Part shown: positions 25,490 through 60,820 of the stretch, piece by piece
How the letters are laid out: each line of letters begins with the position of its first letter
Numbering within the stretch: position 1 is the first letter of the stretch
Source of the DNA: Actinomycetota bacterium
GTDB taxonomy: Bacteria > Actinomycetota > Acidimicrobiia > Acidimicrobiales > CADCTF01
Direction: 5' to 3'
Assembly (NCBI GenBank): GCA_019348255.1
Contig: JAHWJU010000002.1
Coordinates: 7,132 to 71,131, forward strand
Length of the DNA: 64,000 nucleotides
Made by a program: the position numbers and the translations under genes
Notes under the pieces: generated by a model
Told to the model about the DNA's origin: nothing
Seen by the model: the letters and a program-made list of their open reading frames with translations, nothing else
The model's database searches: none

Positions 25490-26065
25490 ATGGCCGGCCT
25501 CGGTGACCTCCGCCACAACTTCCTCACCGGCACCGTCGAGGAGCTGGTCAAGTGGGCCCGGAAGAACAGCGTGTGGCCCAACACCTTCGGTCTCGCGTGC
25601 TGCGCCATCGAGATGATGGCGACGGGGGCTGCCAACTACGACATCAGCCGCTTCGGCATGGAGGTGTTCCGGGCCTCCCCCCGCCAGGCCGATCTCATGA
25701 TCGTCGCCGGCCGTGTGTCCCAGAAGATGGCGCCGGTGCTGCGTCAGGTCTACGACCAGATGATGGAACCCAAGTGGGTCATCTCCATGGGCGTCTGCGC
25801 CTCCTCCGGCGGGATGTTCAACAACTACGCCATCGTCCAGGGCGTCGACCAGATCGTCCCCGTCGACGTGTACGCACCAGGATGCCCGCCGAACCCCGAG
25901 ACCCTCCTGCATTCCATCCTCACCCTCCACGCGAAGATCCAGTCAGGCGAGATCACGCGTCGGCGCGAGGCGACCGGACGAGGTGCCGGCATCGAGGTGG
26001 CGGAGGTGCTGCCGACGGGCGGGGACGCCAGGGAAGCCCCCGTTCCCGTCGGCACCCCCTCCTGA
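25490..26065 (+). CDS. nuoB: NADH-quinone oxidoreductase subunit B
   Basis: [21 protein letters not shown] and PGCPPNPE (N2 cluster cysteines); ATG 25490. Confidence 0.9.
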
Positions 26066-26632: not shown

Positions 26633-27960
26633 GGAGCCGGACGGCTTCAGCCGAGACGTCCGAGGGCCGCCAGGAGATGGCGCCGCGGGGGGCGACCGAG
26701 CGGGCCGAGTTGCTGCGCGAGGAGGGTGCGGTCCTCCGCCTTCCCGAGGGCCCGACGTTGTCGCCACAGGACGTGGCCATCGAAGTGGCCGGCGAGGGCG
26801 AGACCATGATCATCAACATGGGCCCGCAGCACCCGAGCACCCATGGCGTCTTGCGCGTGATGATGGAGCTCGACGGGGAGACGGTCGTCCGCTCCAAGCC
26901 GGTGATCGGCTACCTCCACACGGGCATGGAGAAGACGGCGGAGGACCTCATGTACATCCAGGGGTCCACCAACGTGACCCGGATGGACTACCTCGCCAAC
27001 TTCTTCAACGAGAACGTCTACTCGATGGCGGTGGAGCAACTGCTCGGCATCGAGGTGCCGCCCCGGGCGACGTGGATCCGGATGCTGCTCTGCGAGCTCA
27101 ACCGCATGTCCTCGCACCTGTTGTTCATGGCCACCAACGGCATGGACGTCGGGGCCCTCTCGATGATGATCTACGGCTGGCGGGAGCGCGAGCTCGTGCT
27201 GGCATTCTTCGAGAAGGTGACGGGGTTGCGGATGAACCACAACTTCATCCGTCCCGGTGGGGTGGCGGCCGACCTGCCGGCAGGTTGGCGGGACGACGTC
27301 AAGCAGATCTGCAACCTCATCGAGCCGAGGCTCGACGAGTACGACGAGCTGCTGACCGGCCAGCCGATCTTCCAGGAGCGGACCCAGGGGGTCGGGGTGC
27401 TGACTCCGGAACAGGCCGTGGCGCTGTCGGCCACGGGGCCCATCCTGCGCTCGACCGGGGTCGAGTGGGACCTGCGGCGGGACATGCCTTACCAGTACTA
27501 CGACCAGCTCGAATTCGACGTGATCGTGGGTCAGTACGGCGACGCCTTCGATCGCTACGCCATCCGCCTCAACGAGATCCGCGAGTCGATCAAGCTCGTC
27601 CGCCAGATCATCGAGCTCGTGCCCGGCGGTGACTACCGGACGCAGGACAAGAAGGTGACGCCGCCGCCCAGGGCCCGCATCGACGAGTCGATGGAAGCAT
27701 TGATCCACCACTTCAAGCTCTTCACGGAGGGGTTCCGGGTGCCCGCGGGAGAGGTGTACGTGCCCATCGAGTCCCCCCGCGGGGAGCTGGGCTGCTACCT
27801 GGTCTCGGACGGTTCGGCCAAGCCCTTCCGCCTCCACATCCGGGCACCGTCCTTCGCCAACCTCCAGACGCTGCCCGTTATGTTGCGCGGCGGCCTCATC
27901 GCCGACGCAGTCGCCATCATCTCCTCCATCGACCCCGTCATGGGAGACGTCGACCGATGA
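26629..27960 (+). CDS. nuoD: NADH-quinone oxidoreductase subunit D
   Basis: NMGPQHPSTHGVLR, IGYLHTGMEK and C-terminal DPVMGDVDR; ATGA overlap with nuoC. Confidence 0.9.
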   Translation: MRSRTASAETSEGRQEMAPRGATERAELLREEGAVLRLPEGPTLSPQDVAIEVAGEGETMIINMGPQHPSTHGVLRVMMELDGETVVRSKPVIGYLHTGMEKTAEDLMYIQGSTNVTRMDYLANFFNENVYSMAVEQLLGIEVPPRATWIRMLLCELNRMSSHLLFMATNGMDVGALSMMIYGWRERELVLAFFEKVTGLRMNHNFIRPGGVAADLPAGWRDDVKQICNLIEPRLDEYDELLTGQPIFQERTQGVGVLTPEQAVALSATGPILRSTGVEWDLRRDMPYQYYDQLEFDVIVGQYGDAFDRYAIRLNEIRESIKLVRQIIELVPGGDYRTQDKKVTPPPRARIDESMEALIHHFKLFTEGFRVPAGEVYVPIESPRGELGCYLVSDGSAKPFRLHIRAPSFANLQTLPVMLRGGLIADAVAIISSIDPVMGDVDR

Positions 27961-45327: not shown

Positions 45328-45693
45328 ATGTCGGACTTCCTTCGGAGCTACCTCACGGTGGCGATCCTCGGAGGGGCCGCTTTCCTGCTCGTAGGGGGCT
45401 TGCTCGGCCTCGGCAGGTTGATCAGGCCCCGCCGACCACAACCCCAGAAATACATCCCTTACGAAAGCGGCGTGGATCCTGTGGGCACCGGGTGGTCCCA
45501 GAGCCAGATCCGCTATTACGTCTTCGCTCTCCTGTTCGTCTTGTTCGACGTGGAAGCGGTCTTCATCTTTCCGTGGGCGGTCCGTCTCGAGGAGCTGGCC
45601 CTCTTCGGGCTCGTCGAGATGATCGTGTTCATCGTCATCCTCGCCCTCGGCCTCGTCTACGCATGGCGCAAAGGGGTGCTCCGGTGGGTCTAG
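45328..45693 (+). CDS. nuoA2: NADH-quinone oxidoreductase subunit A, second copy
   Basis: IPYESGV...[16 protein letters not shown] signature; 3 TM segments; 121 aa. Confidence 0.85.
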
Positions 45694-46199
45694 TGGAGTC
45701 GGGGAAGGTGCCCAAGCCGCTGTCGTGGTTGCTCAACTACAGCCGCAAGTACTCGCTGTGGGTCTACCAGTGGGGCCTCGCGTGTTGTGCCATCGAGATG
45801 GGCGCGGCCTTCGGTTCACCCCGCTACGACGTGATGCGTCTGGGCGTCATCCCCCTGCCCGCCTCCGCCCGCCAGGCTGACCTGGTGGTCGTCTCGGGCA
45901 CTGTGACCGACAAGATGGCCCCTCCCATCCGCAGGCTCTGGGAGCAGATGCCGGACCCGAAGTACGTGATCTCGATGGGGAGCTGCGCGAACTGCGGCGG
46001 CCCCTATTGGGACAGCTACTCGGTCACCAAGGGCATCGACCAGATCATCCCCGTCGACGTCTACGTCCCAGGATGCCCACCCCGGCCCGAGGCTCTGCTC
46101 GAGGGCATCGTCTTGCTCCAGCAGCGCATCCAGCACGAGGACATGGCCGACCGGTGGCGGGGAGAGCCGCTGGTGGTCGGAGGCGGCCCCATCTCATGA
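45693..46199 (+). CDS. nuoB2: NADH-quinone oxidoreductase subunit B, second copy
   Basis: [23 protein letters not shown] and PGCPPRPE; GTG 45693 overlaps the nuoA2 TAG by 1 nt. Confidence 0.85.
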
Positions 46200-47089
46200 G
46201 CGAGACTGGGCCCGAGCGGCCCTCCCAGCCGGGTGACGGCCCGCCCGAACGGATGGACCTCCACGAAACCTCGACCCCGGAGGGTCAGCGGCCAGCCGAA
46301 GAGTCCGGTTCCCCGCAGAGCGTGGGCGGAGAGCCGGCCCCGGAGGCGTCCCCGGCCCAACCGCCCGCCGACGCCACCGCCACTCCGTCTCCGGCAGTGA
46401 CCGCCTCTGGCGACCAGTCCCAGCCCGAGCCCGACCCCCCGCCCGCCCCGGAACCGGACCCAATCCGCGACCAGCTCGTGGAGCGTCTGCGGGCGGTCCT
46501 GGGGGAGGCGGTCGTGGACTCCGTGGTGCAGAAGGGCGACTTGTGGGTGCGGGTGCACCGGGACGCCTGGCGCCGGACGGCGCAACTCCTGAAAGACAGC
46601 GGTTTCACGTACTTCTGCTTCTTGTCGGGCATCGACTGGCTCCCTAATCCGGAGCTGTCGAACCGCTACGAGCAGGTCTTCACCGCGGAAGGGGACGGGG
46701 CCGACCCTGAGGAGACCACGCCCTCCACCATCGAGACGGGGCTGGCGGGAGGCGAAACCCGGTTCCAGGTCTTTGCCCGCCTCTACGACGTGCAGCGAAA
46801 GTTCGGCGTCACCATCAAGGCGGACCTCGACGACGAGGCTCCGAGCGTGGAGAGCATCTCGTCCGTCTACCGGGGCGCCGATTGGCACGAGCGGGAGACA
46901 TGGGAGATGTTCGGGTTCGACTTCGTCGGTCACCCGGGGCTGCGTCACCTCTACCTGCCCACCGGCTTCGAGGGGTTCCCTCTGCGCAAGGACTTCCCAC
47001 TGCTTGCACGGGTGGTGAAGCCGTGGCCGGGCCTGGTGGACAAGGAGCCCGTGCCGGGCGAAGACGAAGAGGAGGTGCCTGCCACGTGA
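46196..47089 (+). CDS. nuoC2: NADH-quinone oxidoreductase subunit C, second copy, with ~95-aa Pro/Glu/Ala-rich N-terminal extension
   Basis: C-terminal [37 protein letters not shown] signature; ATGA overlap with nuoB2. Confidence 0.85.
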
Positions 47090-48258
47090 CCATCACCCAG
47101 CATCAACAGCAGGCCTACATCGCCGGCCAGGCCGCCGAGGCCCGCCTCCGCTTCGAGCTCGAGACAGAGGGAATGACCCTCAACATCGGGCCTCAGCATC
47201 CCGCCACGCACGGGACGCTCCGCATCGTGGTCCGCCTCGACGGCGAGCAGGTCGTGTGGGCCGATCCCGTCTGCGGCTACATGCACCGCGGCTACGAGAA
47301 GCTGTGCGAGGTCCGCAAGTACCAGCAGGTGACCACCCTCATCAACCGGATCGACTGGTTGGGGCACTTCGCCAACGAGGTGCCCTTCATCCTGGCCGTC
47401 GAACAGCTGTACGACGTGGAGGCGCCTCCTCGGGCGCAGTGGATCCGCACGATCTTCTTCGAGATGGCCCGTATGGCCAACCTCGGCTTGTTCCTGGGGG
47501 ACATGGGAGTTCAGCTGGGGGCCATCACTCCGGTGTTCTTCGCCTTCCGCGACCGCGAGCACGTGCTCAACCTCATGGAGGCTGCCACCGGGGGCCGCTT
47601 CCATCCCAACTACGACCGGGTCGGGGGTCTCAAGGAGGATCTGCCCAAGGGTTGGGTGGACGAGTGCAAAGAGGTGATGAAGCGCCAGCGGGAGTTCTGC
47701 GACGAGATGGAGGAGCTCCTGGTCGGAAACGAGATCTTCCAGACCCGCACCCGCGGCATCGGGGTGATCCCCCAACAGATAGGTCTCGACTACGGATTGT
47801 CAGGCGCCAACATCCGCGCCAGCGGCGTCGACTGGGACCTCCGGCGGGACCGGCCCACGCCCTTGGCCTGGAAAGAGGCCGACTGGAAGGTGTGGACCCA
47901 CCCCGACGGCGACTCCTTCGCCCGCTACTGGGTGCGGCTGCAGGAAGTTCGGGAGTCGACCAAGATCGTCGACCAGCTGCTGGAAGGCCTCCCGTCTGGG
48001 CCGGTGATGGCCAAGATGCCGGCCCGCCTCCGGGTGCCCAAGGGAGAGGCCTGGGTCAACACCGAGAACCCGTTGGGGGAGATGGGCTACTACGTCGTCA
48101 GCGACGGTGGCCCCAGCGGGCCCTTCCGCTGCAAGATCCGCTCCGCCAGCTTCAACAACATCTCCATCGTGCCGTGGCTGCTCCGCGGCGTCTACGTTCC
48201 CGACGTCATCACCATTCTCGCCAGCCTCTACTTCATCCTCGGCGACATCGATAGATGA
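47086..48258 (+). CDS. nuoD2: NADH-quinone oxidoreductase subunit D, second copy
   Basis: NIGPQHPATHGTLR, CGYMHRGYEK and C-terminal YFILGDIDR; GTGA overlap with nuoC2. Confidence 0.9.
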   Translation: MTITQHQQQAYIAGQAAEARLRFELETEGMTLNIGPQHPATHGTLRIVVRLDGEQVVWADPVCGYMHRGYEKLCEVRKYQQVTTLINRIDWLGHFANEVPFILAVEQLYDVEAPPRAQWIRTIFFEMARMANLGLFLGDMGVQLGAITPVFFAFRDREHVLNLMEAATGGRFHPNYDRVGGLKEDLPKGWVDECKEVMKRQREFCDEMEELLVGNEIFQTRTRGIGVIPQQIGLDYGLSGANIRASGVDWDLRRDRPTPLAWKEADWKVWTHPDGDSFARYWVRLQEVRESTKIVDQLLEGLPSGPVMAKMPARLRVPKGEAWVNTENPLGEMGYYVVSDGGPSGPFRCKIRSASFNNISIVPWLLRGVYVPDVITILASLYFILGDIDR

Positions 48259-48382
48259 GTTCGCCGTCACTCGCTCGCTGCGCTCGCTCCGTTCCGGCGA
48301 GTTCGTTGTGCCGCCCTTCGGGCGGCGCTGTCTCTGGCTCGATCGACCGGCAGAGCCGGATCGATCGAGGGGAGGGGGGTTG
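48259..48382 (+). repeat. Structured intercistronic repeat, copy B (nuoD2-nuoH2 junction)
   Basis: Same core as 27961-28078. Hairpins at 48310-48326 and 48338-48369. Bridged by a 42-codon ORF (48255-48383) docked ATGA/TGATG. Confidence 0.75.
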
Positions 48383-49402
48383 ATGCTGGCGCTTTCTTAT
48401 CCGGTGGAGACGGCCATCAAGATGGGGGCGGTGCTGGCCGTCATCCCGGTGGGGGCACTGATCCTCGTCTACGTCTTCCTGTTCAAGATGATGAGCCACA
48501 TGCAGAGCCGGCTGGGTCCGATGGAGGCGGGCTTCCACGGGACGCTGCAGCCGGTGGTGGAGGGTGTGAAGTTCCTCCAGAAGGAGGACCTCATCCCGAA
48601 CGGAGCGGACCGGCGGATCTTCGCACTGGCCCCGCTCGTGGTCATCATCGCCACGTTCCTCATCTACGCGGTGATCCCGGCCGGGCCCGACCTCGTCATC
48701 TCCAACCTCGACGTGGGCGTCTTCTATGCCCTGGCCGTTGGCTCGCTGTCCGTACTCGGCGTCCTCATGGCCGGTTGGGCGTCGGCCAACAAGTACTCGC
48801 TGCTCGGCTCGCTACGGGCTGCGGGGCAGCTGATCGCCTACGAGCTCCCGCTGGTGCTGGCCGTCGTGGGGGTTGTGATCCAGGCCGGGACGATGAGCCT
48901 GTCCGGCATCGTCGAGGCCCAGGCCGAAGGAGAGATCTTCGGCTTCGGCGGCATCGGCAACCCTTACATCCTCACTCAGTTCATCGGCTTCGCGCTGTTC
49001 GTGGTCTCCTCGCAGGCCGAGCTGACCCAGGCGCCCTTCGACATGCCGATCGCCGAGTCCGAGCTCGTCGCCGGCTACATGACCGAGTACAGCGGGTTCC
49101 GGTTCCTGTTCTTCTTCATCGGTGAGTTCGCCACTGCCTTCGCCCTTTCGGCCATCGCGGCCACCCTCTTCCTCGGCGGCTGGTACTTCCCCGGCCTCGG
49201 GACCGACGGCGCCCTCGCCAACCTGGCGGGACCCATCGTGCTCATGGGCAAGATCATGCTGATGGCCTTTTTCATCTTCTGGATGCGCTTCACCTACCCG
49301 CGGCTGCGGGAGGACCAGTTGCAGACCTTCGCCTGGAAGTGGCTGATCCCCATCTCGCTGGTCAACATCGCCGTCACGGGCGTGCTGAAGGTGGCCTTCT
49401 GA
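48383..49402 (+). CDS. nuoH2: NADH-quinone oxidoreductase subunit H, second copy
   Basis: [26 protein letters not shown] and [29 protein letters not shown] 48383 (TTG 48380 is also possible). Confidence 0.85.
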
Positions 49403-49917
49403 TGCCGGAGATCCCCGGGCAGGGCCTGGTCAAGGGTCTGGGTGTGACGCTGCGGACCATGATGCGCCCTGCCGTCACCGTGCAGTACCCCCACGACAAG
49501 GAGGCTCCGCCCACCCGAGCCCGGGGCGTGATCGCACTGCTCGAGGAGAACTGCACCGTCTGCATGCTGTGTGCCCGCGAATGCCCGGACTGGTGCATCT
49601 ACATCGAGGGCCACAACGACAAAGCTCCCCCCCGCCGCGAAGGCGGCAAGCCCCGCACCATCAACATCCTCGACCGCTTCGACATCGACTACGGCCTTTG
49701 CATGTACTGCGGCATCTGCGTCGACGTCTGCCCCTTCGACGCGCTCTTCTGGTCGCCGGAATACGAGTACTCCGAGATCAACATCGCCGACCTGTTGCAC
49801 GACAAGCGCCGGCTGGGCGAGTGGATGGACACCGTGCCCGAACCACCGCCGCTCGAGGCGGGGGCACAGGGCAAGCTCAGGAAGGGCCCCGCCGAGGCGC
49901 GGGCCAAGAGCCGGTAG
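49402..49917 (+). CDS. nuoI2: NADH-quinone oxidoreductase subunit I, second copy
   Basis: [12 protein letters not shown] and [12 protein letters not shown] motifs; TGATG overlap with nuoH2. Confidence 0.9.
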
Positions 49918-49923
49918 CGGCCG

Positions 49924-50415
49924 GTGAGCGGAGCGAACGTCGCCTTCGGGGTTCTTGCCGCGGTCATGGCGGTCTCTGCCATCCGGGTGGTGACGACCAA
50001 GAACGTCGTCCACGCCGCGCTGTACCTCGTCCTGGTGCTCGCCGGAGTGGCCGGGATCTTCATCCTCCTGGCCGCAGAGTTCCTCGCCATCGTGCAGATC
50101 CTCGTCTACATCGGCGCCATCGTCGTGTTGTTCCTCTTCGGCATCATGCTCACCCGGGCGCCGATCGGACGAGCCCCCGATCTCGACAACGACCAGCGTG
50201 CCATCGGGGCCGTCGTGGCCATGTTCCTTTTCGGGGTGCTGGGCTGGATCCTCTATGACGGCTTCGGCGACACCCAGCTGCAGTTGCGCGACGTGGGCCG
50301 AAGCGGAGATGTCGGCGCGTCCATCTTCTCCACCTTCGTCGTCCCCTTCGAGGTCATCTCCGTCCTGCTTCTCGCTGCCCTGGTGGGCGCGGTAGTGATC
50401 GCCAGGAGGGACTGA
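49924..50415 (+). CDS. nuoJ2: NADH-quinone oxidoreductase subunit J, second copy
   Basis: ND6-like (NVVHAALYLV...[20 protein letters not shown]), in the canonical position. Confidence 0.85.
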   Translation: MSGANVAFGVLAAVMAVSAIRVVTTKNVVHAALYLVLVLAGVAGIFILLAAEFLAIVQILVYIGAIVVLFLFGIMLTRAPIGRAPDLDNDQRAIGAVVAMFLFGVLGWILYDGFGDTQLQLRDVGRSGDVGASIFSTFVVPFEVISVLLLAALVGAVVIARRD

Positions 50416-50723
50416 TGTACCTGATGCAGTTCCTGGTTCTGGCCGCCTTCCTGTTCTGCGTCGGCGTCTACGGCGTCCTCGTCCGGAAGAACGCGGTGCT
50501 GGTTCTGATGTCGATCGAGTTGATCCTCAACTCGGTCAACATCAACTTGGTCGCTCTGGGCGTGTACCGGGGCTACGACCAGGCCATCGTCGGCCAGGTC
50601 TTCTCCCTCTTCGTCATCGCTGTTGCCGCCGCCGAGGTGGGCATCGGACTGGCCATCGTGCTGCTCATCTACCGCAACCGCGCCTCCATCGACCTCTCAG
50701 AGGTCGACCTCATGAAGGGTTAG
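50415..50723 (+). CDS. nuoK2: NADH-quinone oxidoreductase subunit K, second copy
   Basis: 102-aa, 3-TM ND4L-like protein (MSIELILNSVNI...AAAEVGIGLAI). Confidence 0.9.
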   Translation: MYLMQFLVLAAFLFCVGVYGVLVRKNAVLVLMSIELILNSVNINLVALGVYRGYDQAIVGQVFSLFVIAVAAAEVGIGLAIVLLIYRNRASIDLSEVDLMKG

Positions 50724-50733
50724 CCGGCGCCGC

Positions 50734-52977
50734 ATGGTGCTTCAGAACATCTGGGTCATCCCGGCCATCACGGCCTCTTCGTTCGTCCTCATCCTGTTGT
50801 TCGGTCGCCGCCTACCCAACAAGGGGGCGGAGTTCGGGCTGATGGCCCTGACCATGACGTTCGCGCTGGCCAGCATCGGTGCGGCGCAGTGGGTGGGTCG
50901 ACCCGCCGACCTGGAGGTCGAGCCTGCGTCGACCATCAAGTCGGCCGAGGCCCACGACGAGGAGGGCGGGGACGAGGACCACGGCAACAAGTCGGACAAG
51001 GGACACGCCGGCGAAGGAGCCAAGGAGCACGCCGGCGAAGGAGCCAAGGAGCACGCGGAGGAGCAAGACGAGGGTGGTCACGGCGCCGAGGGCACCGTGG
51101 CCGAAGCGGGGGAGGGTGACGAGGACCACGGCGGCGGCCACGAGGCCGAGCCGATCCGCCGTCCTGTCGACCGCCGGTGGGCCTGGTTCCAGACCGGCGA
51201 CGTGAAGGTGCAGGCAGGCACCCATGCCGACGGGTTGGCCATGGCCATGCTGTTCGTGGTCAGCCTGATCTCGTTGCTCGTGCACGTCTTTTCGTTCAGC
51301 TACATGCACGGCGACGAGCGGTTCACGCACTACTACGCCGCGCTGTCGCTGTTCACCACCGGGATGTTCGTCCTCGTCACCGCCAGCAACACCTTGCAGG
51401 CCCTGTTCGGCTGGGAGCTCATGGGCCTGTGCTCGTTCATGCTCATCGGCCACTGGTGGGACCGCGACGGCAACAAGAACTCCAGCGCCGCCCTCAAGGC
51501 GTTCTTCACGACCCGCACCGGAGACGTGGGCCTGCTCGTCGGCATCTCCATCCTGTTCTTCGCCGCCGGCCAGACCTTCGACATAGAGACCACCAATCGG
51601 GCCGCGCTGACCGGCCAGATCGGTTCTGGTGTGTTGCTGGCCGCGGCCGCCGCCCTTCTGGTGGCCGTCATCGGTAAGAGCGCGCAGTTCCCCCTGCACA
51701 CGTGGCTGCCCGATGCGATGGCGGGCCCGACCCCGGTGTCCGCCCTCATCCACGCCGCGACCATGGTGGTCGCCGGCGTCTACCTGGTGGCTCGCCTCTA
51801 CGGCGTGTTCTGGGTCGCCTTCGACATCGGCGGCGGCGGCATCAACCCGGTGGCCGTCGTGGGGGCCGTCACCATCCTCATCGCCGCAGCCCTGGCCTTC
51901 GTCCAGGCCGACATCAAGAAGGTGCTCGCCTACTCCACCGTCAGCCAGTTGGGCTTCATGATCATGGCGTTGGGGGTCGGGGCGTGGACGGCCGGCATCT
52001 TCCACCTCTTCACCCACGCCTTCTTCAAGGCCTGCTTGTTCCTCGGCGCCGGCTCGATCAGCCACTCCGGGTCGCACCACTCCTTCGACATGGTCAAGGA
52101 CATGGGGGGCCTCAAGGACAAGATGCCCTGGACCTTCCGCACCTTCTTGGTGGCTACGGCCGCGCTCGCCGGCGTTCCGCCTCTGGCCGGGTTCTGGTCG
52201 AAGGACGAGATCCTCCTGGGCGCCGGGAAGAACGGGTACGGGCTGTTCATGGTGGTGGGTCTGATCGGCGCCTTCATGACGGCGGCCTACATGACCCGAT
52301 GCGTCTATCTCACCTTCTTCGGGGAGCCACGGGGAGCAGCGGCCCACCACCACCCCCACGAATCGCCACCGCTCATCGTCGTTCCCCTGCAGGTCCTGGC
52401 TGTGCTCTCCGTCTTCGCCGGCTTGCTCAACGCCCCGTTCTTCGGCGAGTTGTTCGGGAAGTGGACCTCCAACAGCACCGTGCTCGGCGCCGGCATCGCC
52501 CACCACGAGTTCTCCCTGGTGGCGGCCGCGCTGTCCATCGCCGTCGCCTTCGGCGGCATCGCCACCGGCTACGCCTACTACTGGAAGGGCTTCCGCGTCG
52601 GCAGCCTGCGCCACGACCGGGGGCCCACGGGAATGTTGTACCGGCTCCTCGTGCGCAAGTACTACCTGGACGACCTCTACGAAGGCTTCATCGTCCGCGG
52701 CATCCGGGAACCGGTCGCCCGGGCCGCCTACTGGACGAACCAGAAGGTCATCGACGCCGTGGTGAACGGCGCAGGCATCGCGGCCCGGGGCATCGCCCGG
52801 TTCGTCTACGAGATCATCGACCAGCGTGGAATCGACGCCGCCGTGAACGGAGCGGGCATCGCCTCCTCCGAGACCGGCGGGCTGCTCCGCTACATCCAGA
52901 CTGGCCGCGTCCAGCAGTACGCGGCCCTCATGCTCGGTGCCGCCGGCGTCTTCGCGCTGGCGCTGGCGCTGCTGTAA
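50734..52977 (+). CDS. nuoL2: NADH-quinone oxidoreductase subunit L, second copy, with ~95-aa His/Glu/Gly-rich insertion after TM2
   Basis: ND5 motifs: FGWELMGLCSFMLIGHWW and KSAQFPLHTWLPDAMAGPTPVSALIHAATMV. The insertion at roughly nt 50900-51185 is absent from nuoL. Confidence 0.9.
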   Translation: MVLQNIWVIPAITASSFVLILLFGRRLPNKGAEFGLMALTMTFALASIGAAQWVGRPADLEVEPASTIKSAEAHDEEGGDEDHGNKSDKGHAGEGAKEHAGEGAKEHAEEQDEGGHGAEGTVAEAGEGDEDHGGGHEAEPIRRPVDRRWAWFQTGDVKVQAGTHADGLAMAMLFVVSLISLLVHVFSFSYMHGDERFTHYYAALSLFTTGMFVLVTASNTLQALFGWELMGLCSFMLIGHWWDRDGNKNSSAALKAFFTTRTGDVGLLVGISILFFAAGQTFDIETTNRAALTGQIGSGVLLAAAAALLVAVIGKSAQFPLHTWLPDAMAGPTPVSALIHAATMVVAGVYLVARLYGVFWVAFDIGGGGINPVAVVGAVTILIAAALAFVQADIKKVLAYSTVSQLGFMIMALGVGAWTAGIFHLFTHAFFKACLFLGAGSISHSGSHHSFDMVKDMGGLKDKMPWTFRTFLVATAALAGVPPLAGFWSKDEILLGAGKNGYGLFMVVGLIGAFMTAAYMTRCVYLTFFGEPRGAAAHHHPHESPPLIVVPLQVLAVLSVFAGLLNAPFFGELFGKWTSNSTVLGAGIAHHEFSLVAAALSIAVAFGGIATGYAYYWKGFRVGSLRHDRGPTGMLYRLLVRKYYLDDLYEGFIVRGIREPVARAAYWTNQKVIDAVVNGAGIAARGIARFVYEIIDQRGIDAAVNGAGIASSETGGLLRYIQTGRVQQYAALMLGAAGVFALALALL
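51004..51051 (+). repeat. Perfect 24-bp tandem duplication inside nuoL2
   Basis: CACGCCGGCGAAGGAGCCAAGGAG occurs twice back to back (51004-51027 and 51028-51051), encoding HAGEGAKE x2. A partial third unit (CACGCGGAG) follows. Confidence 0.95.
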
Positions 52978-52985
52978 GGAGATTG

Positions 52986-54527
52986 ATGAACTGGTTCGAC
53001 GACTGGGCCCTGACGCTCGCGGTGTTCCTGCCGATGGTGGGCGTGGCCGTATTGGCGCTGATCCCCCGGGCCAACGAGGACCTCCACAAGCTGGTGGCCC
53101 TCGTCACCAGCGGCGCCACCTTGGCTGTCGGCGTCGGCATCCTCACCCGCTTCGACTACAGCCGCAGTCGCATGCCGCAGTTCGAGGTGGACCGCGGCTG
53201 GATCGATGTGATCAACAGCCGGTACCACGTGTTCGTCGACGGGATCTCACTCCCGCTCCTCGCCCTGTCCATGCTCATCACGGTCCTCTGCGTGATCTAT
53301 TCGTGGAACCACTTCCCCGAGCCCCACAACCCGAAGGCGTTCCTCATCCTCATGCTCGTGCTCGAGACCGGGATGAACGGCACCTTCGTGGCTGAAGACC
53401 TGATCCTGTTCTTCGTGTTCTTCGAGCTCGTCCTGCTGCCGATGTACTTCATGATCGGCGTGTGGGGCGGCGAGAACCGCCAGTACGCCTCGATCAAGTT
53501 CTTCCTCTACACGCTGTTCGGCTCGGCGCTGATGATCCTGAGCTTCCTGGCCCTGTTCTTCCTCGCCCCCAACACTGCCGGCCAGAACACCTTCGACATC
53601 CCCGAGTTGGTCGCGGCCGGCGCCAGCATCCCCCGCAGCACCCAGATCCTCATCTTCGCCGGCCTGTTCATGGGCTTCGCCATCAAGGTCCCCATGTTCC
53701 CGTTCCACACCTGGCTTCCGGATGCCCACACCGAGGCGCCCACCGTCGGGTCGGTGATCCTGGCCGCCGTGCTCCTCAAACTCGGCACCTACGGGTTCAT
53801 CCGCATCGCCCTGCCCATCCTGCCCGAGGCGGCCGAGGCGTGGGCGCCGTGGATCGGGGGACTGGCCGTGATCGGCATCATCTACGGCGCGCTCGGGTGC
53901 CTGGCCCAGCGGGACATGAAACGGCTGATCGCCTTCTCGTCGGTGGCCCACATGGGCTACGTGATGCTGGGCATCTCCACCCTCACCGACTACGGAGTCA
54001 ACGCCGCGGTGTTCGGCATGGTCGCCCACGGACTCATCACCGGGATGCTGTTCTTCTTGGCTGGGTCCATCCACGAGCGGTATCACACCCGTGAGCTGGC
54101 CCGTCTCGGTGGCATCCTCAAACAGGCCCCGCACCTGGGCTGGATCCTGGGCTTCTGCGCCTTTGCATCGCTGGGCCTGCCCGGGCTGGCCGGCTTCTGG
54201 GGCGAGTTCCCGGCGATACTGTCGGCCTACAGTCCGGCGGAAGCCCTCGACGAGGGCCTGTTCCGGATCTACATGGTCGTCGCCGCCATCGGCACGGTCC
54301 TCGCTGCCGGCTACCTGCTCTGGATGTTCCAGCGGACCGCCTTCGGCCTGCCGAAGGAGGAGTTCTCCGACGCCCACATCCATGACGTGCACGGCCCGGA
54401 GTGGATCGCCTGGACCCCGTTGCTCGTGCTCATCGTCGTTCTCGGGATCTTTCCAAACCTGCTGTTCGGCATCACCGACGACGCGGTGGGGGTCGTGACC
54501 CAGGCCTTCGCCAGAGTCGGCGGCTGA
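52986..54527 (+). CDS. nuoM2: NADH-quinone oxidoreductase subunit M, second copy
   Basis: FFELVLLPMYFMI and IKVPMFPFHTWLPDAHTEAPTVGSVILAAVLLKLG; ATG 52986. Confidence 0.9.
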   Translation: MNWFDDWALTLAVFLPMVGVAVLALIPRANEDLHKLVALVTSGATLAVGVGILTRFDYSRSRMPQFEVDRGWIDVINSRYHVFVDGISLPLLALSMLITVLCVIYSWNHFPEPHNPKAFLILMLVLETGMNGTFVAEDLILFFVFFELVLLPMYFMIGVWGGENRQYASIKFFLYTLFGSALMILSFLALFFLAPNTAGQNTFDIPELVAAGASIPRSTQILIFAGLFMGFAIKVPMFPFHTWLPDAHTEAPTVGSVILAAVLLKLGTYGFIRIALPILPEAAEAWAPWIGGLAVIGIIYGALGCLAQRDMKRLIAFSSVAHMGYVMLGISTLTDYGVNAAVFGMVAHGLITGMLFFLAGSIHERYHTRELARLGGILKQAPHLGWILGFCAFASLGLPGLAGFWGEFPAILSAYSPAEALDEGLFRIYMVVAAIGTVLAAGYLLWMFQRTAFGLPKEEFSDAHIHDVHGPEWIAWTPLLVLIVVLGIFPNLLFGITDDAVGVVTQAFARVGG

Positions 54528-54528
54528 C

Positions 54529-56049
54529 GTGTACGGAGCGATGCTCGCTGCGGCGCAGGCCGCGACGGATTTCGTGACGCCGAAGCTCGACTACGCCGCC
54601 CTGGCCCCCGAGATGATCCTCACCGGTGTCATCGTCGTCGTCCTGCTGCTCGACCTGTTCCTGGACGAGACGCAGAAGTACGTCATCCCGAGCATTGCCG
54701 GCTTCGGGATCCTGACAGCCGCGTTCCCACTCGTGTTCCTGGCCGTGCAGGGCGACGACGTGCGTTCCATGGTGGGCGGCGCCTACGTCTCCGACGACTT
54801 CGCCCTGGTGTTCAAGGCCCTCTTCCTCGGGACCGGCTACGTCGTGCTCCTCATGTCGAACCGGTACATCGACGAGGGTGACTATTACAAGGGCGAGTAC
54901 TACGTGATGCTGCTGTCGTCGCTGCTCGGGATGGTGGTCATGTCCTCCTCGCGCGACCTCATCTCGATCTTCGTGGCACTGGAGCTGCTGTCGATCCCGG
55001 CCTACCTGCTGGCCGGCTGGCGCAAGCGTGACCTCAAGAGCAACGAGGCCTCGCTCAAGTACTACCTGCTCGGCGTGCTGTCCAGCGGGGTGATGCTCTA
55101 CGGCATGTCGCTGATCTTCGGTGCCGCCGGTACCACCGTGCTGGAGGACATCAGCGCCCAGCTCGTATCGGTGCCCCAGCTCGACAAGGTGATTGCGATC
55201 GGCATCTTCTTCGTGGTCGTCGGCTTCGCCTTCAAGGTCTCCGCTGTTCCCTTCCACTTCTGGGCTCCCGACACCTACGAGGGGGCCCCCACCCCGGTGA
55301 CCGCCTTCCTGTCGGTGGCCTCCAAGGCCGCCGGCTTCGTCGCACTGCTGCAGTTGGTGTTCATCGCCTTCCTCTCCCAGGGCGACACGTGGGCACCGCT
55401 TTTCTGGGTGCTGGCCGCGCTCACGATGACCGTGGGAAACCTCGTCGCACTGCGCCAGACCAACATCGTGCGGATGCTCGCCTACTCGTCGGTCGCGCAG
55501 GCTGGCTACATCCTCGTGCCGTTCGCGGTGGCGGGTGACGAGCTGCGAGCGGTGCAGTCGGCCCAGACTGCGGCGATCGTCTATCTGCTCATCTACTCGG
55601 CCATGAACCTGGGGGCCTTCGCGATCGTCCTGGCCGTCGCCCGCAAGACCCGCTCCGGGGAGATATCGAGCTTCGGCGGGCTCTTCCAGTACGCGCCAGG
55701 CCTGACGGTGGTCATGACCGTCTTCCTGGCATCCCTGGCCGGGGTGCCGCCCGCCGGAGGATGGTTCGCCAAGTTCGCCGTCTTCCGCTCCGTACTCGAT
55801 GCCGGCACCGGCTGGGCCGTCGCCCTGGGCGTCATCGCCGCCGTCAACTCCGTGGTGGCCGCCTTCTACTACTTCAACGTGGCCCGCGAGATGTGGATCA
55901 ACCCCGTCCCCGACGAGGACCGCACCCCCATCCGGGTGCCGGCCGCGCTGACCACCGCCCTCGGCCTCACCGTCGCCGTCGTACTGGTGATCGGAGTCTT
56001 CCCGGGCCTCTTCGCCGACCTGGGCAACGCGGCATCGCTTGGGCGATGA
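54529..56049 (+). CDS. nuoN2: NADH-quinone oxidoreductase subunit N, second copy
   Basis: FVALELLSIPAYLL and FKVSAVPFHFWAPDTYEGAPTPVTAFLS. Confidence 0.9.
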   Translation: MYGAMLAAAQAATDFVTPKLDYAALAPEMILTGVIVVVLLLDLFLDETQKYVIPSIAGFGILTAAFPLVFLAVQGDDVRSMVGGAYVSDDFALVFKALFLGTGYVVLLMSNRYIDEGDYYKGEYYVMLLSSLLGMVVMSSSRDLISIFVALELLSIPAYLLAGWRKRDLKSNEASLKYYLLGVLSSGVMLYGMSLIFGAAGTTVLEDISAQLVSVPQLDKVIAIGIFFVVVGFAFKVSAVPFHFWAPDTYEGAPTPVTAFLSVASKAAGFVALLQLVFIAFLSQGDTWAPLFWVLAALTMTVGNLVALRQTNIVRMLAYSSVAQAGYILVPFAVAGDELRAVQSAQTAAIVYLLIYSAMNLGAFAIVLAVARKTRSGEISSFGGLFQYAPGLTVVMTVFLASLAGVPPAGGWFAKFAVFRSVLDAGTGWAVALGVIAAVNSVVAAFYYFNVAREMWINPVPDEDRTPIRVPAALTTALGLTVAVVLVIGVFPGLFADLGNAASLGR

Positions 56050-56197
56050 TCGCCTTCGCAACCGTAGGTTGCTCGGCGAGCTCGTTGTGCCGGCCTTCGG
56101 CCGGCGCTGTCTCTGGCTCAGCCGACCGGCGGAGCCGGATCGGCTGAGGAGCCTGGCGGACGGAGGGGCCGGATCGGCTGAGGGGTAAAGCATCGCC
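56050..56197 (+). repeat. Structured intercistronic repeat, copy C (nuoN2-midA junction) with duplicated 3' arm
   Basis: Core hairpins at 56089-56105 and 56117-56148. The 3'-arm sequence CCGGATCGGCTGAGG recurs at 56135-56149 and 56169-56183. A 33-codon ORF (56046-56147) starts with an ATGA overlap on the nuoN2 stop. Confidence 0.75.
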
Positions 56198-57349
56198 GTG
56201 GGGGCTATGGGTGCCATGGGGGTGGTGCAGGGGCGGGTTCGGCGGTTGGGGCCGATCTCATTCGAGGACTACCTCGACATCGCCCTCTACGAGCCCGAAG
56301 CAGGCTTCTACAGCACGGGCGGCGGCGCCGGCCGCCACGGCGATTTCCTGACCAGCCCAGAGCTGGGGCCGCTTTTCGGGGCGGTGATCGGTCGGGCGCT
56401 CGATGCCTGGTGGTCGGAGCTCGGAGAGCCCGATCCGTTCGTCGTCGTGGAGGCGGCCGCCGGCGAGGGCAGTCTCGCCGCAGCCGTGCTGGCCGCCGCG
56501 CCTCGCTGCGCCCCGGCTCTGCGCTACCTGCTCGTGGAGCGCTCGGAACGCATGCGCCAGCGCCAACCGGCCCGGGTTGCGCTCGAGCCCAGCTCGGTGG
56601 TGCTGGGCCCGCGGGGGGACGAGGGCGAGGACGACGAGGACTCCTCGACAGCGGCCGGCGACGGACCACGGCTGGCCTCGCTGGACGATCTGCCTGCCGC
56701 TCCCTTCAGCGGCGTCGTGCTGGCCAACGAGTTGCTCGACAACCTTCCCTTCACCCTGCTCGAGCGCAGCACCGGCGGCTGGGACGAGGTGCGGGTCGGG
56801 GAATCGACCGGAAGCGGAGGCCTCGTCGAGTTCCTGGCGCCGGCGCCTACGACGCTGGCTTCTCTGGCGGCAGAACTGGCCCCCGACGCCGATCCCGGCG
56901 TCCGCATCCCCGTGCAGCGACGGGCGGCGGAGTGGCTGCGGAAGGTACTGAGGCTGCTTCGGGGGGGCCGGGTGGTGGTCGTCGACTACGTCGCCACCAC
57001 GGCCGAGCTCGCCAGCCGACCGCAGGGGGAGTGGCTTAGGACGTACCGCAGCGGCGGACCCGGGGGGCATCCCCTGGACACCCCTGGGGCCCAGGACATC
57101 ACCTGCGAGGTCTGTGTCGACCAACTGTCGCGGGTGCGGGTGCCGACCTCCAACCGGCCGCAGGCGGAGTTCCTAGTGGCGCATGGGCTGGCGCAGTTGG
57201 TCGACGAGGCGAAGGATGCGTGGCTGCGGGGGGCTGCTGGCGGCGGGCTCGAGGCGCTGCGGGCCAGGAGCCGGATCGACGAAGCCGCCGCCCTCACCGA
57301 TCCCTCCGGGCTCGGTGCCTTCCGGGTGCTGGAGTGGGTGACCGGCTGA
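56198..57349 (+). CDS. MidA/NDUFAF7-family class I SAM-dependent methyltransferase (DUF185 type)
   Basis: ISFEDYLDIALYEPEAGFYS...GRHGDFLTSPELGPLFGAVIG closely parallels the family N-terminal block (GDF.TSPE....FGE..G). It is followed by VVEAAAGEGSLA (SAM motif I) and VLANELLDNLPF. The start could also be ATG 56207 or 56216. Confidence 0.8.
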   Translation: MGAMGAMGVVQGRVRRLGPISFEDYLDIALYEPEAGFYSTGGGAGRHGDFLTSPELGPLFGAVIGRALDAWWSELGEPDPFVVVEAAAGEGSLAAAVLAAAPRCAPALRYLLVERSERMRQRQPARVALEPSSVVLGPRGDEGEDDEDSSTAAGDGPRLASLDDLPAAPFSGVVLANELLDNLPFTLLERSTGGWDEVRVGESTGSGGLVEFLAPAPTTLASLAAELAPDADPGVRIPVQRRAAEWLRKVLRLLRGGRVVVVDYVATTAELASRPQGEWLRTYRSGGPGGHPLDTPGAQDITCEVCVDQLSRVRVPTSNRPQAEFLVAHGLAQLVDEAKDAWLRGAAGGGLEALRARSRIDEAAALTDPSGLGAFRVLEWVTG

Positions 57350-57376
57350 GCTCGGTCGAGCCGCTACCCTGCCCGC

Positions 57377-58816
57377 GTGCGTCGACGCCTCCCCCTGCTG
57401 CTGGCCCTCGTATTGACGCTGCCTTCGGCGCTCATTGCCACCGTCGCCACCCCCGCGGGCGCGGCCGGCGACGAAACCGTCATGGCCTTCGGTGACGCCG
57501 CATTTGCCGGCTCCACCACCGGTCTGGCGCTTTCCTCGCCGCTGGTGGCGATGGCCGCCAAGCCCACCGGCACCGGGTACTGGCTGGTGGGGCGCGACGG
57601 GGGCATCTTCGCCTTCGGCGACGCCCCCTATGTCGGCTCCACCGGGGACATCCGTCTCAACCAGCCGATCGTGGGCATGACGGCAACCCGTTCCGGCAAC
57701 GGTTACTGGATGGCCGCCGCCGACGGCGGCATCTTCGCCTTCGGCGACGCCCGCTTCCTCGGCAGCATGGGCGGTGTCCGCCTCGCTCGGCCGGTCGTGG
57801 CGATGGCGGCCACCGCCTCCGGCAACGGTTACTGGATGGTGGCCGCCGACGGCGGCATGTTCGCCTTCGGCGACGCCGGGTTCCACGGGTCTGCCGCCGG
57901 TCAGCGTCTGGGCAAGCCCGTCGTGGCCATGGCGTCGACTCCCGACGGTGGCGGGTACTGGCTGGTGGGCGGCGACGGCGCCGTCTACTCGTTCGGCAAC
58001 GCACCCCACCTCGGCAACGCACCCGGCAACGTCGAGGTCGCCGGCATCGCCGCATCCCCATCGGGCAACGGCTACTGGCTGCTAGACCGCGCCGGCGGTG
58101 TCTTCACCTTCGGTGACGCCGTCTTCGCCGGTTCCGGCTCAGGAGCGGTCGCACCCGGCAAGGTCGCCCTCGCCCTGGTGCCGTCGCGCTCGGGCAACGG
58201 GTACTGGATCACGACCGGTGAGATCCCCTTGGTGGCGGGGGCCACCGGCTCGGCGGTGACCCGCCTGCAGAGCCGGCTCCACGAGCTCGGCTACTGGGTG
58301 CCGGTCGACGGCCGGTTCACGGCCACCACCACCCAGGCCCTCTATGCCCTCCAGAAGGCGGCCGGCATCTCCCGCACCGGCCAGTTCGACGCCGCCACGG
58401 CGCGAGCCCTGGACGAGCGGGTGCTGCCCACACCCCGCACCACCAGCGGCTACGTGGCCGAGATCGACAAGAGCCGCCAGCTGCTGATGCTCGTGAGCAA
58501 CGGACGCATCGTCCGCGTCTTCAACACCTCCACCGGCAACGGCGCCCGCTACCGCTCAGGCTCCGGAACCGCCATCGCCTACACCCCTGAGGGATCGTTC
58601 TCGGTGGTGCGCCAGATCAACGGGCTACGGATCTCGGAGCTGGGGCAGCTCTTCCGGCCCAAGTACTTCACCGGCGGCTACGCCATCCACGGCTCACCCA
58701 GCATCCCGCCCTATCCGGCCTCCCACGGCTGTGTTCGCGTCTCGAACTCCGCCATCAACTTCCTCTGGGACAGCGGCGAGCTGCCCATCGGGACGCCGGT
58801 GCTCGTCTACTCCTGA
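57377..58816 (+). CDS. Secreted L,D-transpeptidase (YkuD) with PG-binding domain and N-terminal six-repeat propeller-like domain
   Basis: Signal peptide; six ~40-aa repeats; PG_binding_1-like GSAVTRLQSRLHELGYWVPVDGRFTATTTQALYALQKAAGISRTGQ; YkuD catalytic motif YAIHGSPSIPPYPASHGCVRV. Confidence 0.85.
   Translation: MRRRLPLLLALVLTLPSALIATVATPAGAAGDETVMAFGDAAFAGSTTGLALSSPLVAMAAKPTGTGYWLVGRDGGIFAFGDAPYVGSTGDIRLNQPIVGMTATRSGNGYWMAAADGGIFAFGDARFLGSMGGVRLARPVVAMAATASGNGYWMVAADGGMFAFGDAGFHGSAAGQRLGKPVVAMASTPDGGGYWLVGGDGAVYSFGNAPHLGNAPGNVEVAGIAASPSGNGYWLLDRAGGVFTFGDAVFAGSGSGAVAPGKVALALVPSRSGNGYWITTGEIPLVAGATGSAVTRLQSRLHELGYWVPVDGRFTATTTQALYALQKAAGISRTGQFDAATARALDERVLPTPRTTSGYVAEIDKSRQLLMLVSNGRIVRVFNTSTGNGARYRSGSGTAIAYTPEGSFSVVRQINGLRISELGQLFRPKYFTGGYAIHGSPSIPPYPASHGCVRVSNSAINFLWDSGELPIGTPVLVYS
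57479..58216 (+). repeat. Six tandem ~40-42-aa coding repeats (consensus ..F.FGDA.F.GS.....L..P.V.MA.T.SGNGYW.V..DGG)
   Basis: Visible in the translation. Repeats 2 and 3 also share near-identical DNA strings 126 bp apart (GGCATCTTCGCCTTCGGCGACGCCC at about 57602 and 57728; TCCGGCAACGGTTACTGGATGG at about 57693 and 57819). Confidence 0.8.

Positions 58817-58867: not shown

Positions 58868-60820
<1,953 letters not shown>

What the first reader, a model, noticed from the sequence alone, without database searches (positions are those of the whole stretch)
56198..57349. MidA/NDUFAF7-family methyltransferase encoded directly behind the EFG-less nuo operon
The product has the characteristic N-terminal block of the MidA/NDUFAF7 family (..YEPEAGFYS...GDFLTSPELGPLFGAVIG..) and a class I SAM fold. 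In mitochondria NDUFAF7 is a complex I assembly factor that dimethylates an arginine of NDUFS2, the NuoD homologue. As I recall, the target lies in the conserved HGVLR segment. Both NuoD paralogues here keep that arginine (NuoD: THGVLR; NuoD2: THGTLR). Physical linkage of the bacterial homologue to a nuo operon, separated only by the structured repeat (copy C), suggests that methylation-dependent maturation of NuoD predates mitochondria and may be specific to one of the two complexes.
Basis: partly seen in the sequence, partly recalled or inferred. Interest (0 to 1): 0.6.

Follow-up and report, generated by a model that had tools for sequence, protein, structure and literature searches.

The report
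NuoD arginine methylase behind second nuo operon
An uncultured Acidimicrobiales bacterium encodes a relative of the mitochondrial complex I assembly methyltransferase NDUFAF7/MidA as the last gene of its second, NADH-module-less complex I operon, and only that operon's NuoD has the arginine this enzyme family methylates; the methylation itself is untested.

Summary
The ORF at 56198-57349 is a genuine MidA/NDUFAF7-family methyltransferase. It scores 130.6 bits on PF02636. The AlphaFold model has pLDDT 89.6, and its six best PDB matches are all MidA-family structures. It lies 148 nt behind nuoN of an 11-gene nuo operon that lacks nuoE, F and G.

The linkage is not chance. In all 106 Acidimicrobiales loci where both genes are visible, nuoN sits directly upstream on the same strand, with a median gap of about 18 nt. 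The four relatives without midA also lack the whole second operon.

NDUFAF7 methylates the Arg of HRGxE (KCDPHIGLLHRGTEK), not the one in HGVLR. At that site NuoD2 has Arg (GYMHRGYEK) and NuoD1 has Thr (GYLHTGMEK). NuoB shows the reverse pattern, Arg in NuoB1 and Thr in NuoB2. All relatives examined show the same.

Elsewhere in Actinomycetota midA lies next to a stand-alone nuoD2.

It is not new that NuoD methylation predates mitochondria: Paracoccus Nqo4 is dimethylated. The operon linkage was noted in passing for Ca. Actinomarina in 2021. Methylation here is inferred, not shown.

The parts
56198..57349 (+). midA: MidA/NDUFAF7-family (PF02636, COG1565) SAM-dependent methyltransferase, 383 aa. 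The start is uncertain by up to about 24 nt: GTG 56198, ATG 56207, ATG 56216 or GTG 56222.
   Evidence: Pfam at 130.6 bits. A profile of 18 orthologues hits PDB 4f3n at 1.5e-41, 1zkd at 1.4e-36 and Dictyostelium MidA 5ztz at 3.6e-31. AlphaFold pLDDT 89.6, with the top six Foldseek hits all MidA-family. Single-copy in the genome.
56441..56476 (+). Methyltransferase motif I region of MidA, VVVEAAAGEGSL. The first Gly of the usual G-x-G-x-G is Ala in this genome and its close relatives.
   Evidence: Alignment A1. It aligns with vmEfGAGtGkL of 4f3n and liEiGpGrGtm of 1zkd. Coordinates.
56720..56752 (+). MidA family signature LANELLDNLPF. A176, N177, E178, L179, D181, N182 and L183 are invariant among the 18 orthologues.
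   Evidence: aligned with vvgNEvLDamPv of 4f3n and ilANEyFDvLPi of 1zkd; coordinates.
56050..56197 (+). nuoN2-midA spacer holding one copy of a dispersed hairpin-rich repeat. This explains why the gap here is 148 nt, against a median of about 18 nt in relatives.
   Evidence: Direct repeat D9, 56074-56149 versus 48295-48370, 87% identical. Gap statistics. No intrinsic terminator or sigma-70 promoter match.
45328..56049 (+). nuo2 operon: nuoA2, B2, C2, D2, H2, I2, J2, K2, L2, M2, N2, with no E, F or G.
   Evidence: Pfam assignments.
47086..48258 (+). nuoD2 (likely start GTG 47086), the inferred substrate of MidA.
   Evidence: PF00346. The N-terminal part aligns without gaps to mammalian NDUFS2.
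47287..47289 (+). Codon CGC for the Arg of GYMH-R-GYEK in NuoD2 (residue 68 counted from GTG 47086). It aligns with NDUFS2 Arg85, the NDUFAF7 target.
   Evidence: The target site is taken from PMC3750175.
26920..26922 (+). Codon ACG for Thr at the same position of NuoD1 (GYLH-T-GMEK), in the 14-subunit operon. No methylatable Arg here.
   Evidence: The same holds in all NuoD1 orthologues examined: Thr, and Ser in one.
45900..45902 (+). Codon for Thr in NuoB2 ([13 protein letters not shown]), the position of T. thermophilus Nqo6 Arg83.
25712..25714 (+). Codon for Arg in NuoB1 ([13 protein letters not shown]). It aligns with T. thermophilus Nqo6 Arg83, which fills the space of the NuoD arginine next to cluster N2.
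   Evidence: alignment to 2fug chain 6 and M. smegmatis 8e9g chain B; PMC8042128.
25163..40648 (+). nuo1 operon from nuoB1 to nuoN1, including nuoE, F and G (the 14-subunit type). Context only; it is not followed by a methyltransferase of this family.
   Evidence: Pfam assignments.

Best explanation
The gene encodes the bacterial counterpart of NDUFAF7/MidA, dedicated to the second, 11-subunit (NuoEFG-less) complex I-like enzyme.

Shown:
- The gene is a true family member.
- It is the conserved last gene of the nuo2 operon throughout Acidimicrobiales.
- Only NuoD2 carries the Arg homologous to NDUFS2 Arg85.
- In the co-resident 14-subunit complex that Arg is replaced by Thr, and an Arg is supplied from NuoB instead, as in Thermus.

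Inferred:
- MidA is co-transcribed, and often translationally coupled, with nuoN2.
- MidA binds newly made NuoD2 and uses SAM to methylate the guanidino group of the Arg in GYMH-R-GYEK. By analogy the product is symmetric dimethyl-Arg.
- NuoD1 is not a substrate at this site, because it has no Arg there.
For: Family membership:
- PF02636 at 130.6 bits.
- Profile hits to all three solved MidA-family proteins.
- A confident model whose six best structural matches are MidA-family. The seventh-ranked match has E 2.8e-06, against 2.5e-22 for the sixth.
- Family motifs are invariant among orthologues.

Linkage within the order:
- All 30 loci from 29 families of the order show nuoN then midA on the same strand.
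- So do all 76 of 80 further species loci that have upstream sequence, each with the full nuoB..N array.
- The median stop-to-start gap is about 18 nt, and 20 loci overlap or abut.

Co-absence:
- The four genomes of the order without midA, from four different families, also lack NuoD2 and NuoB2.

Target site:
- The NDUFAF7 target is the Arg in KCDPHIGLLHRGTEK, and NuoD2 aligns there without gaps.
- Every NuoD2 examined has Arg and every NuoD1 has Thr or Ser. NuoB2 has Thr and NuoB1 has Arg.

Independent linkage outside Acidimicrobiia:
- In a sample of Actinomycetota, 21 midA-positive genomes from at least 8 families have midA within about 3.3 kb of a stand-alone nuoD2-like gene that keeps the Arg.
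- Streptomyces nuoD2 is known to be separate from the nuo2 cluster.
- All seven further midA-positive genomes tested have an Arg-bearing NuoD.

Precedent:
- Paracoccus Nqo4 carries the dimethyl-Arg. E. coli, in which the same search found no PF02636 match, does not.
Against: - No biochemical or proteomic evidence exists for this organism or any actinobacterium. The function of prokaryotic MidA is so far inferred in silico only.
- About 38 of the sampled Actinomycetota genomes have a NuoD2-like protein with the Arg but no midA. Methylation is therefore not obligatory for this type of subunit.
- In several families (f31, f35, f44) midA and nuoD2 are unlinked.
- In this genome a 148-nt structured repeat separates nuoN2 from midA.
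- Motif I has Ala in place of the first Gly.
Confidence: 0.7

Rival explanations
1. MidA serves the nuo2 complex but not through methylation of the HRGxE arginine. It would act as a binding or assembly chaperone for NuoD2, or methylate another residue or another nuo2 subunit.
For: The gene-order evidence ties midA to nuo2 and NuoD2 but says nothing about the chemistry. Motif I deviates: Ala replaces the first Gly. Many NuoD2-bearing genomes manage without midA.
Against: SAM-fold motifs and the family signature NELLDNLP are invariant across orthologues, which argues for retained catalysis. The one residue known to be modified by this family is conserved in every linked NuoD examined.
Confidence: 0.14
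2. MidA has a substrate unrelated to complex I, such as another protein or a nucleic acid, as has been proposed for Wolbachia MidA. On this view it merely rides at the end of the nuo2 transcript.
For: A 2025 paper proposes a role for Wolbachia MidA in shaping gene expression and suggests bacterial DNA methylation, and it notes that prokaryotic function is unproven. midA is unlinked to nuo genes in several actinobacterial families.
Against: Linkage has been kept across at least 29 families of the order. midA and nuo2 are co-lost in four families. Linkage to a relocated stand-alone nuoD2 recurs in at least 8 other families. This is hard to explain without a functional tie to NuoD2.
Confidence: 0.08
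3. MidA matures both complexes, NuoD1 as well as NuoD2.
For: Both NuoD paralogues keep the Arg of the HG(V/T)LR segment, and both operons lie within 20 kb of each other.
Against: The HGVLR arginine is not the known target. At the known target NuoD1 has Thr, or Ser in one relative. Relatives that have only nuo1 have no midA.
Confidence: 0.03

Closest known systems
NDUFAF7 (human) / MidA (Dictyostelium discoideum; PDB 5ztz, 5zu0), the mitochondrial complex I assembly factor that symmetrically dimethylates NDUFS2 Arg85
   Same: Same Pfam family and fold. The inferred substrate is the NDUFS2 homologue with the same HRGxE arginine, aligned without gaps.
   Different: About 20% sequence identity. 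No mitochondrial targeting. Encoded inside the operon of its presumed substrate complex. That complex lacks the NADH-oxidising module NuoEFG. Activity is untested.
Proteobacterial MidA homologues (R. palustris DUF185, PDB 1zkd; Burkholderia thailandensis COG1565, PDB 4f3n) together with the dimethyl-Arg65 of Paracoccus denitrificans Nqo4
   Same: These are bacterial members of the family, 24-26% identical and the best structural matches. Paracoccus shows that the modification exists in bacteria.
   Different: They serve a canonical 14-subunit complex I, and no operon linkage was found in the papers I could read. Here the organism is an actinobacterium with two complexes, of which only the 11-subunit one can be a substrate.
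The 11-subunit nuo operon followed by NDUFAF7 in Ca. Actinomarina (Acidimicrobiia), listed by Bulzu et al. 2021 (bioRxiv 10.1101/2021.02.01.429150)
   Same: Same gene order, nuoABCDHIJKLMN then NDUFAF7 (K18164/PF02636), with a 14-subunit operon nearby. The authors already called NDUFAF7 an accessory assembly component.
   Different: In the passages I read it is mentioned only as heliorhodopsin gene context. There is no analysis of the target arginine, of the NuoD/NuoB Arg swap, or of the distribution across Actinomycetota. The downstream genes differ: htpX and pspE there, ldt and acs here.
T. thermophilus complex I (Nqo4 Thr / Nqo6 Arg83) and M. smegmatis complex I (PDB 8e9g)
   Same: The window's 14-subunit complex has the same arrangement, with Thr in NuoD and Arg in NuoB at the N2 site.
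   Different: This applies to the complex that is not linked to midA. It serves as the internal contrast.

Membership tests
MidA/NDUFAF7 family (Pfam PF02636 Methyltransf_28; COG1565) | Scores above the curated Pfam gathering threshold over most of the model | tested here: met
   130.6 bits against a cut-off of 23.3. Residues 63-313 match model positions 1-236 of 249. NCBIfam has no model that matches.
MidA/NDUFAF7 family (Pfam PF02636 Methyltransf_28; COG1565) | Sequence blocks shared with solved members: GDF-x-T-S/A-PE, motif I E-x-G-x-G-x-G, NE-x-x-D-x-x-P, DYG, D-I/L-T-x-x-V | tested here: met
   All blocks are present and aligned to 4f3n and 1zkd. There are two deviations: the first Gly of motif I is Ala (EAAAGEG), and the residue after D263-Y264 is Val in the window's protein, where 4f3n and 1zkd have Gly. 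The block list is read from those alignments, not from a curated definition.
MidA/NDUFAF7 family (Pfam PF02636 Methyltransf_28; COG1565) | Class I (seven-beta-strand) methyltransferase fold with the MidA-specific additional domain | tested here: met
   Model pLDDT 89.6 and pTM 0.89. Foldseek ranks 1-6 are 4f3n, 4g67, 5ztz, 5zu0 and two chains of 1zkd, with TM 0.72-0.78 and E 1e-27 to 2.5e-22. The next hit has E 2.8e-06.
MidA/NDUFAF7 family (Pfam PF02636 Methyltransf_28; COG1565) | Binds S-adenosylmethionine | not testable with these tools
   Inferred only from conserved motifs and fold.
NDUFAF7-type NuoD/NDUFS2 arginine methyltransferase (functional class) | A NuoD/NDUFS2 homologue with Arg at the HRGxE position is present in the same organism | tested here: met
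   NuoD2 has GYMHRGYEK, aligned without gaps to NDUFS2 IGLLHRGTEK. NuoD1 has Thr there.
NDUFAF7-type NuoD/NDUFS2 arginine methyltransferase (functional class) | Functional association with complex I, taken here as conserved gene neighbourhood and co-occurrence | tested here: met
   106 of 106 loci show nuoN2 then midA. midA and nuo2 are co-absent in 4 genomes. midA lies next to a stand-alone nuoD2 in at least 8 other families.
NDUFAF7-type NuoD/NDUFS2 arginine methyltransferase (functional class) | Catalyses symmetric dimethylation of that arginine | not testable with these tools
   Needs mass spectrometry or an in vitro assay. There are no data for any actinobacterium in the papers searched.
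11-subunit (NuoEFG-less) complex I-like operon | nuoA, B, C, D, H, I, J, K, L, M and N are present and contiguous; nuoE, F and G are absent | tested here: met
   Pfam assignments for 45328-56049. E, F and G are found only in the other operon.

The most novel reading that the evidence does not exclude
MidA-dependent arginine methylation is not a proteobacterial or mitochondrial invention. It is an old trait of those complex I-like enzymes that place the N2-site arginine on NuoD rather than on NuoB, including NADH-module-less 11-subunit enzymes of Actinomycetota. Where two complexes share a cell, MidA discriminates between them simply because only one offers the arginine. The reciprocal NuoD-Arg/NuoB-Thr versus NuoD-Thr/NuoB-Arg swap would then mark methylation-dependent and methylation-independent N2 sites across bacteria.
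Probability: 0.35. Interest if true: 0.65.

Novelty: new member of a known kind. Interest (0 to 1): 0.45.

Why it matters
What the dimethyl-arginine next to cluster N2 does in complex I is still unresolved. In mitochondria it cannot be separated easily from assembly defects. For bacteria the role of MidA is only inferred.

Acidimicrobiales offer a natural contrast within one cell. One complex has the methylatable Arg and the methyltransferase in its own operon. A second complex solves the same structural problem with an Arg from NuoB and needs no methyltransferase.

The gene-order evidence assembled here covers more than 100 species, plus independent nuoD2-midA pairs in other actinobacterial families. 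This is strong genomic support that bacterial MidA works on NuoD.

It also extends the family's association to NADH-module-less enzymes outside Proteobacteria. And it points to tractable test organisms, namely Streptomyces, where nuoD2 lies apart from the nuo2 cluster and beside a PF02636 gene.

Tried and rejected
- NCBIfam gave no match for the protein, so naming rests on Pfam, PDB profiles and the fold.
- The promoter and terminator scan of 55800-57600 found nothing. It is of little value in a 70% G+C actinobacterium, so it neither supports nor excludes read-through from nuoN2.
- The RNA fold of the spacer is not significantly more stable than shuffles (z = -1.72). I did not pursue the riboswitch-like alternative pairing idea, because the element is a dispersed repeat already followed up elsewhere.
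- Two papers are not held, so their statements about bacterial homologues come second-hand. These are the Cell Reports 2018 MidA structure paper and Elurbe & Huynen 2016.
- I considered that the nuoN upstream of midA might belong to the 14-subunit operon. This was rejected: it is 48-85% identical to NuoN2, and the full nuoB2..N2 array precedes it. There is one exception, G035, where midA sits between nuoN1 and nuoA2 and so is still adjacent to nuo2.
- I considered a strict midA/NuoD2 co-occurrence rule across the phylum. This was rejected, because about 38 sampled genomes have NuoD2-like proteins without midA.
- I did not survey phyla other than Actinomycetota. The one genome-contig scan returned only Acidimicrobiia-type loci, and the genome search cannot be centred outside the phylum.

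Full report
**What is at the coordinates**

It matches Pfam PF02636 (Methyltransf_28, the MidA/NDUFAF7 family) at E 9e-38 and 130.6 bits, against a cut-off of 23.3. NCBIfam has no matching model. The gene is single-copy in the 2.99-Mb assembly.

A profile of 18 orthologues hits all three solved members of the family:
- Burkholderia COG1565, 4f3n, 1.5e-41
- R. palustris DUF185, 1zkd, 1.4e-36
- Dictyostelium MidA, 5ztz, 3.6e-31

An AlphaFold model built on that alignment is confident (pLDDT 89.6, pTM 0.89). Its six best PDB matches are exactly these MidA-family structures, with TM 0.72-0.78 and E 1e-27 to 2.5e-22. The next match is at E 2.8e-06.

The family blocks are present and invariant among orthologues: GDFLTSPE, motif I, LANELLDNLP, DY, QDIT..V. 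One deviation is that the first Gly of motif I is Ala in this genome and its close relatives.

**Surroundings**

- 45328-56049 encodes nuoA, B, C, D, H, I, J, K, L, M and N with no E, F or G.
- A complete 14-subunit-type operon, including E, F and G, lies at about 25.2-40.6 kb.
- Downstream of midA come an L,D-transpeptidase, acetyl-CoA synthetase and a cupredoxin protein.
- The 148-nt spacer between nuoN2 and midA holds a copy of a dispersed hairpin repeat that also occurs behind nuoD2. Another agent has already treated that element.
- No terminator or sigma-70 promoter pattern is found.

**Is the linkage more than chance?**

The organism is an Acidimicrobiales MAG, judged from the record titles of the nearest loci.

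PF02636 is present in 37 of 41 genomes of the order. In all 30 fetched loci, from 29 families, a nuoN lies immediately upstream on the same strand. Eighty further species loci were fetched with 10-kb flanks, and 76 of them have upstream sequence. All 76 show nuoB-C-D-H-I-J-K-L-M-N followed by midA.

Over the 106 loci where both genes are visible:
- The median distance from the nuoN stop to the likely midA start is about 18 nt.
- Twenty loci overlap or abut.
- Only six carry inserts above 500 nt.

The four genomes of the order without midA come from four different families. They have neither NuoD2 nor NuoB2. So midA behaves as the terminal gene of the nuo2 operon, and it is lost together with that operon.

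**The target residue**

Carroll et al. 2013 mapped the symmetric dimethyl-Arg to Arg85 in the tryptic peptide KCDPHIGLLHRGTEK, which is the HRGxE motif. They found the same modification in human, Pichia and the bacterium Paracoccus denitrificans (Nqo4 Arg65), but not in E. coli. Hameedi et al. 2021 add that T. thermophilus has Thr at this position and that Arg83 of Nqo6 fills the same space next to cluster N2.

In the window:
- NuoD2 reads GYMH-R-GYEK (codon 47287-47289). It aligns without gaps to mammalian IGLLH-R-GTEK.
- NuoD1 reads GYLH-T-GMEK.
- NuoB1 has Arg in MIVAG-R, aligned with Nqo6 Arg83 and with M. smegmatis NuoB.
- NuoB2 has Thr at that position, as in E. coli and mitochondria.

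Across the order this pattern has no exception. Every NuoD1 examined has Thr (Ser in one) with NuoB1 Arg. Every NuoD2 has Arg with NuoB2 Thr.

The methyltransferase therefore sits behind the only operon whose NuoD can be a substrate at the known site.

**Beyond the order**

In an even sample of 201 Actinomycetota genomes, 69 have PF02636.

Outside Acidimicrobiia the gene is not behind nuoN. However, in 21 genomes from at least eight families it lies within about 3.3 kb of a nuoD2-like gene, mostly convergent and often less than 500 bp away. In the seven such loci fetched with 9-kb flanks, no other nuo gene lies nearby. All the fetched copies keep the Arg, as GYMHRG(Y/A)EK or GYMHRAAEK. Published Streptomyces work confirms that nuoD2 lies apart from the nuoA2B2H2-N2 cluster.

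Seven more midA-positive genomes with a single or divergent NuoD all have Arg at the site.

The converse does not hold. About 38 sampled genomes have a NuoD2-like protein but no midA, much as E. coli has the Arg unmethylated. In some families midA and nuoD2 are unlinked.

**Most likely mechanism**

MidA is made with the nuo2 subunits. It binds NuoD2 and transfers methyl groups from SAM to the HRGYEK arginine, before or while NuoD2 joins NuoB2 at the N2 site.

The family, the linkage, the co-loss and the substrate residue are shown. The chemistry, its timing and co-transcription in this genome are inferred. I put this explanation at 0.7.

Rivals:
- A non-catalytic or different-site role within nuo2 (0.14).
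- An unrelated substrate (0.08). Bacterial DNA methylation has been proposed in connection with Wolbachia MidA.
- Action on both complexes (0.03). This is contradicted by the Thr in NuoD1 and by the absence of midA where only nuo1 exists.

**Novelty**

It is not new that NuoD methylation predates mitochondria. Paracoccus showed this in 2013, and a 2018 paper argued a proteobacterial origin (cited).

The gene order of an 11-subunit nuo operon followed by NDUFAF7 was listed in passing for Ca. Actinomarina. There it appeared as heliorhodopsin gene context, and NDUFAF7 was called an accessory assembly component.

I found no paper in the held library that treats any of the following:
- the target-arginine contrast between the two NuoD paralogues
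- the reciprocal NuoB swap in this setting
- the nuoD2-midA pairs of other Actinomycetota

Earlier notes of this scan on other genomes reach the same reading. They are AI notes, not independent evidence, but I reproduced their main claims here from the sequences. The finding is a well-supported new member of a known kind and gives a useful bacterial test system. Interest 0.45.

**Limits**

- No survey outside Actinomycetota was possible.
- The midA start codon is uncertain by up to about 24 nt.

Noticed in passing
window 47356-47358 (NuoD2), compared with 26989-26991 (NuoD1): The residue aligned with the quinone-headgroup Tyr of complex I (bovine 49-kDa Tyr108, motif RLDY) is Trp in NuoD2 (NRIDW). 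85 of 85 NuoD2-type sequences in Acidimicrobiales and in the stand-alone nuoD2 genes of other Actinomycetota have Trp. 38 of 39 complete NuoD1-type sequences have Tyr. The His of the beta1-beta2 loop is kept in both. This suggests an altered acceptor site in the nuo2 enzyme.
   Followed up: partly
L221-L224 and L235-L240 (other Actinomycetota); for example L223 8217-10395 and L236 9248-11414: These loci carry stand-alone nuoD2-like genes, 44-52% identical to NuoD2, that keep the Arg. In the seven loci with 9-kb flanks no other nuo gene lies nearby. They sit 0.05-3 kb from a PF02636 gene, mostly in convergent orientation, in at least 8 families including genomes I take to be Streptomyces-like from their size.
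   Followed up: partly
L026 and L093 (genome G035, contig C1, about 33.5-51 kb): This is the one deviant arrangement in the order. midA lies between nuoN of the 14-subunit operon and nuoA2 of the 11-subunit operon, so it is upstream rather than downstream of nuo2.
   Followed up: no
window 56600-56680 (MidA residues about 135-160): MidA has an acidic, low-complexity insert (GDEGEDDEDSSTAAGDG) with pLDDT below 50. Its length varies widely among orthologues, and it is absent in some.
   Followed up: no
window 58868-60820 and loci L111-L190: Acetyl-CoA synthetase follows midA on the same strand, within about 0.03-5 kb, in most Acidimicrobiales loci. In this genome's family an L,D-transpeptidase gene is inserted between them.
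   Followed up: no
L095 (G030:C17) and L096 (G026:C16): The two midA-less, nuo2-less relatives carry a very distant NuoD homologue (24-27% identity, with HRGLE or HRGIE) beside a NuoB-like small subunit. This is probably a group 4 hydrogenase-like module rather than complex I.
   Followed up: no
window 42732-44450 (-): A 572-aa protein with two methyltransferase domains (PF13649 matched twice) lies in the minus-strand gene group between the two nuo operons. It is not related to PF02636.
   Followed up: no
L137, L143, L148, L169, L181, L189: Six Acidimicrobiales species have 0.8-3.6 kb inserted between nuoN2 and midA. The content was not examined.
   Followed up: no
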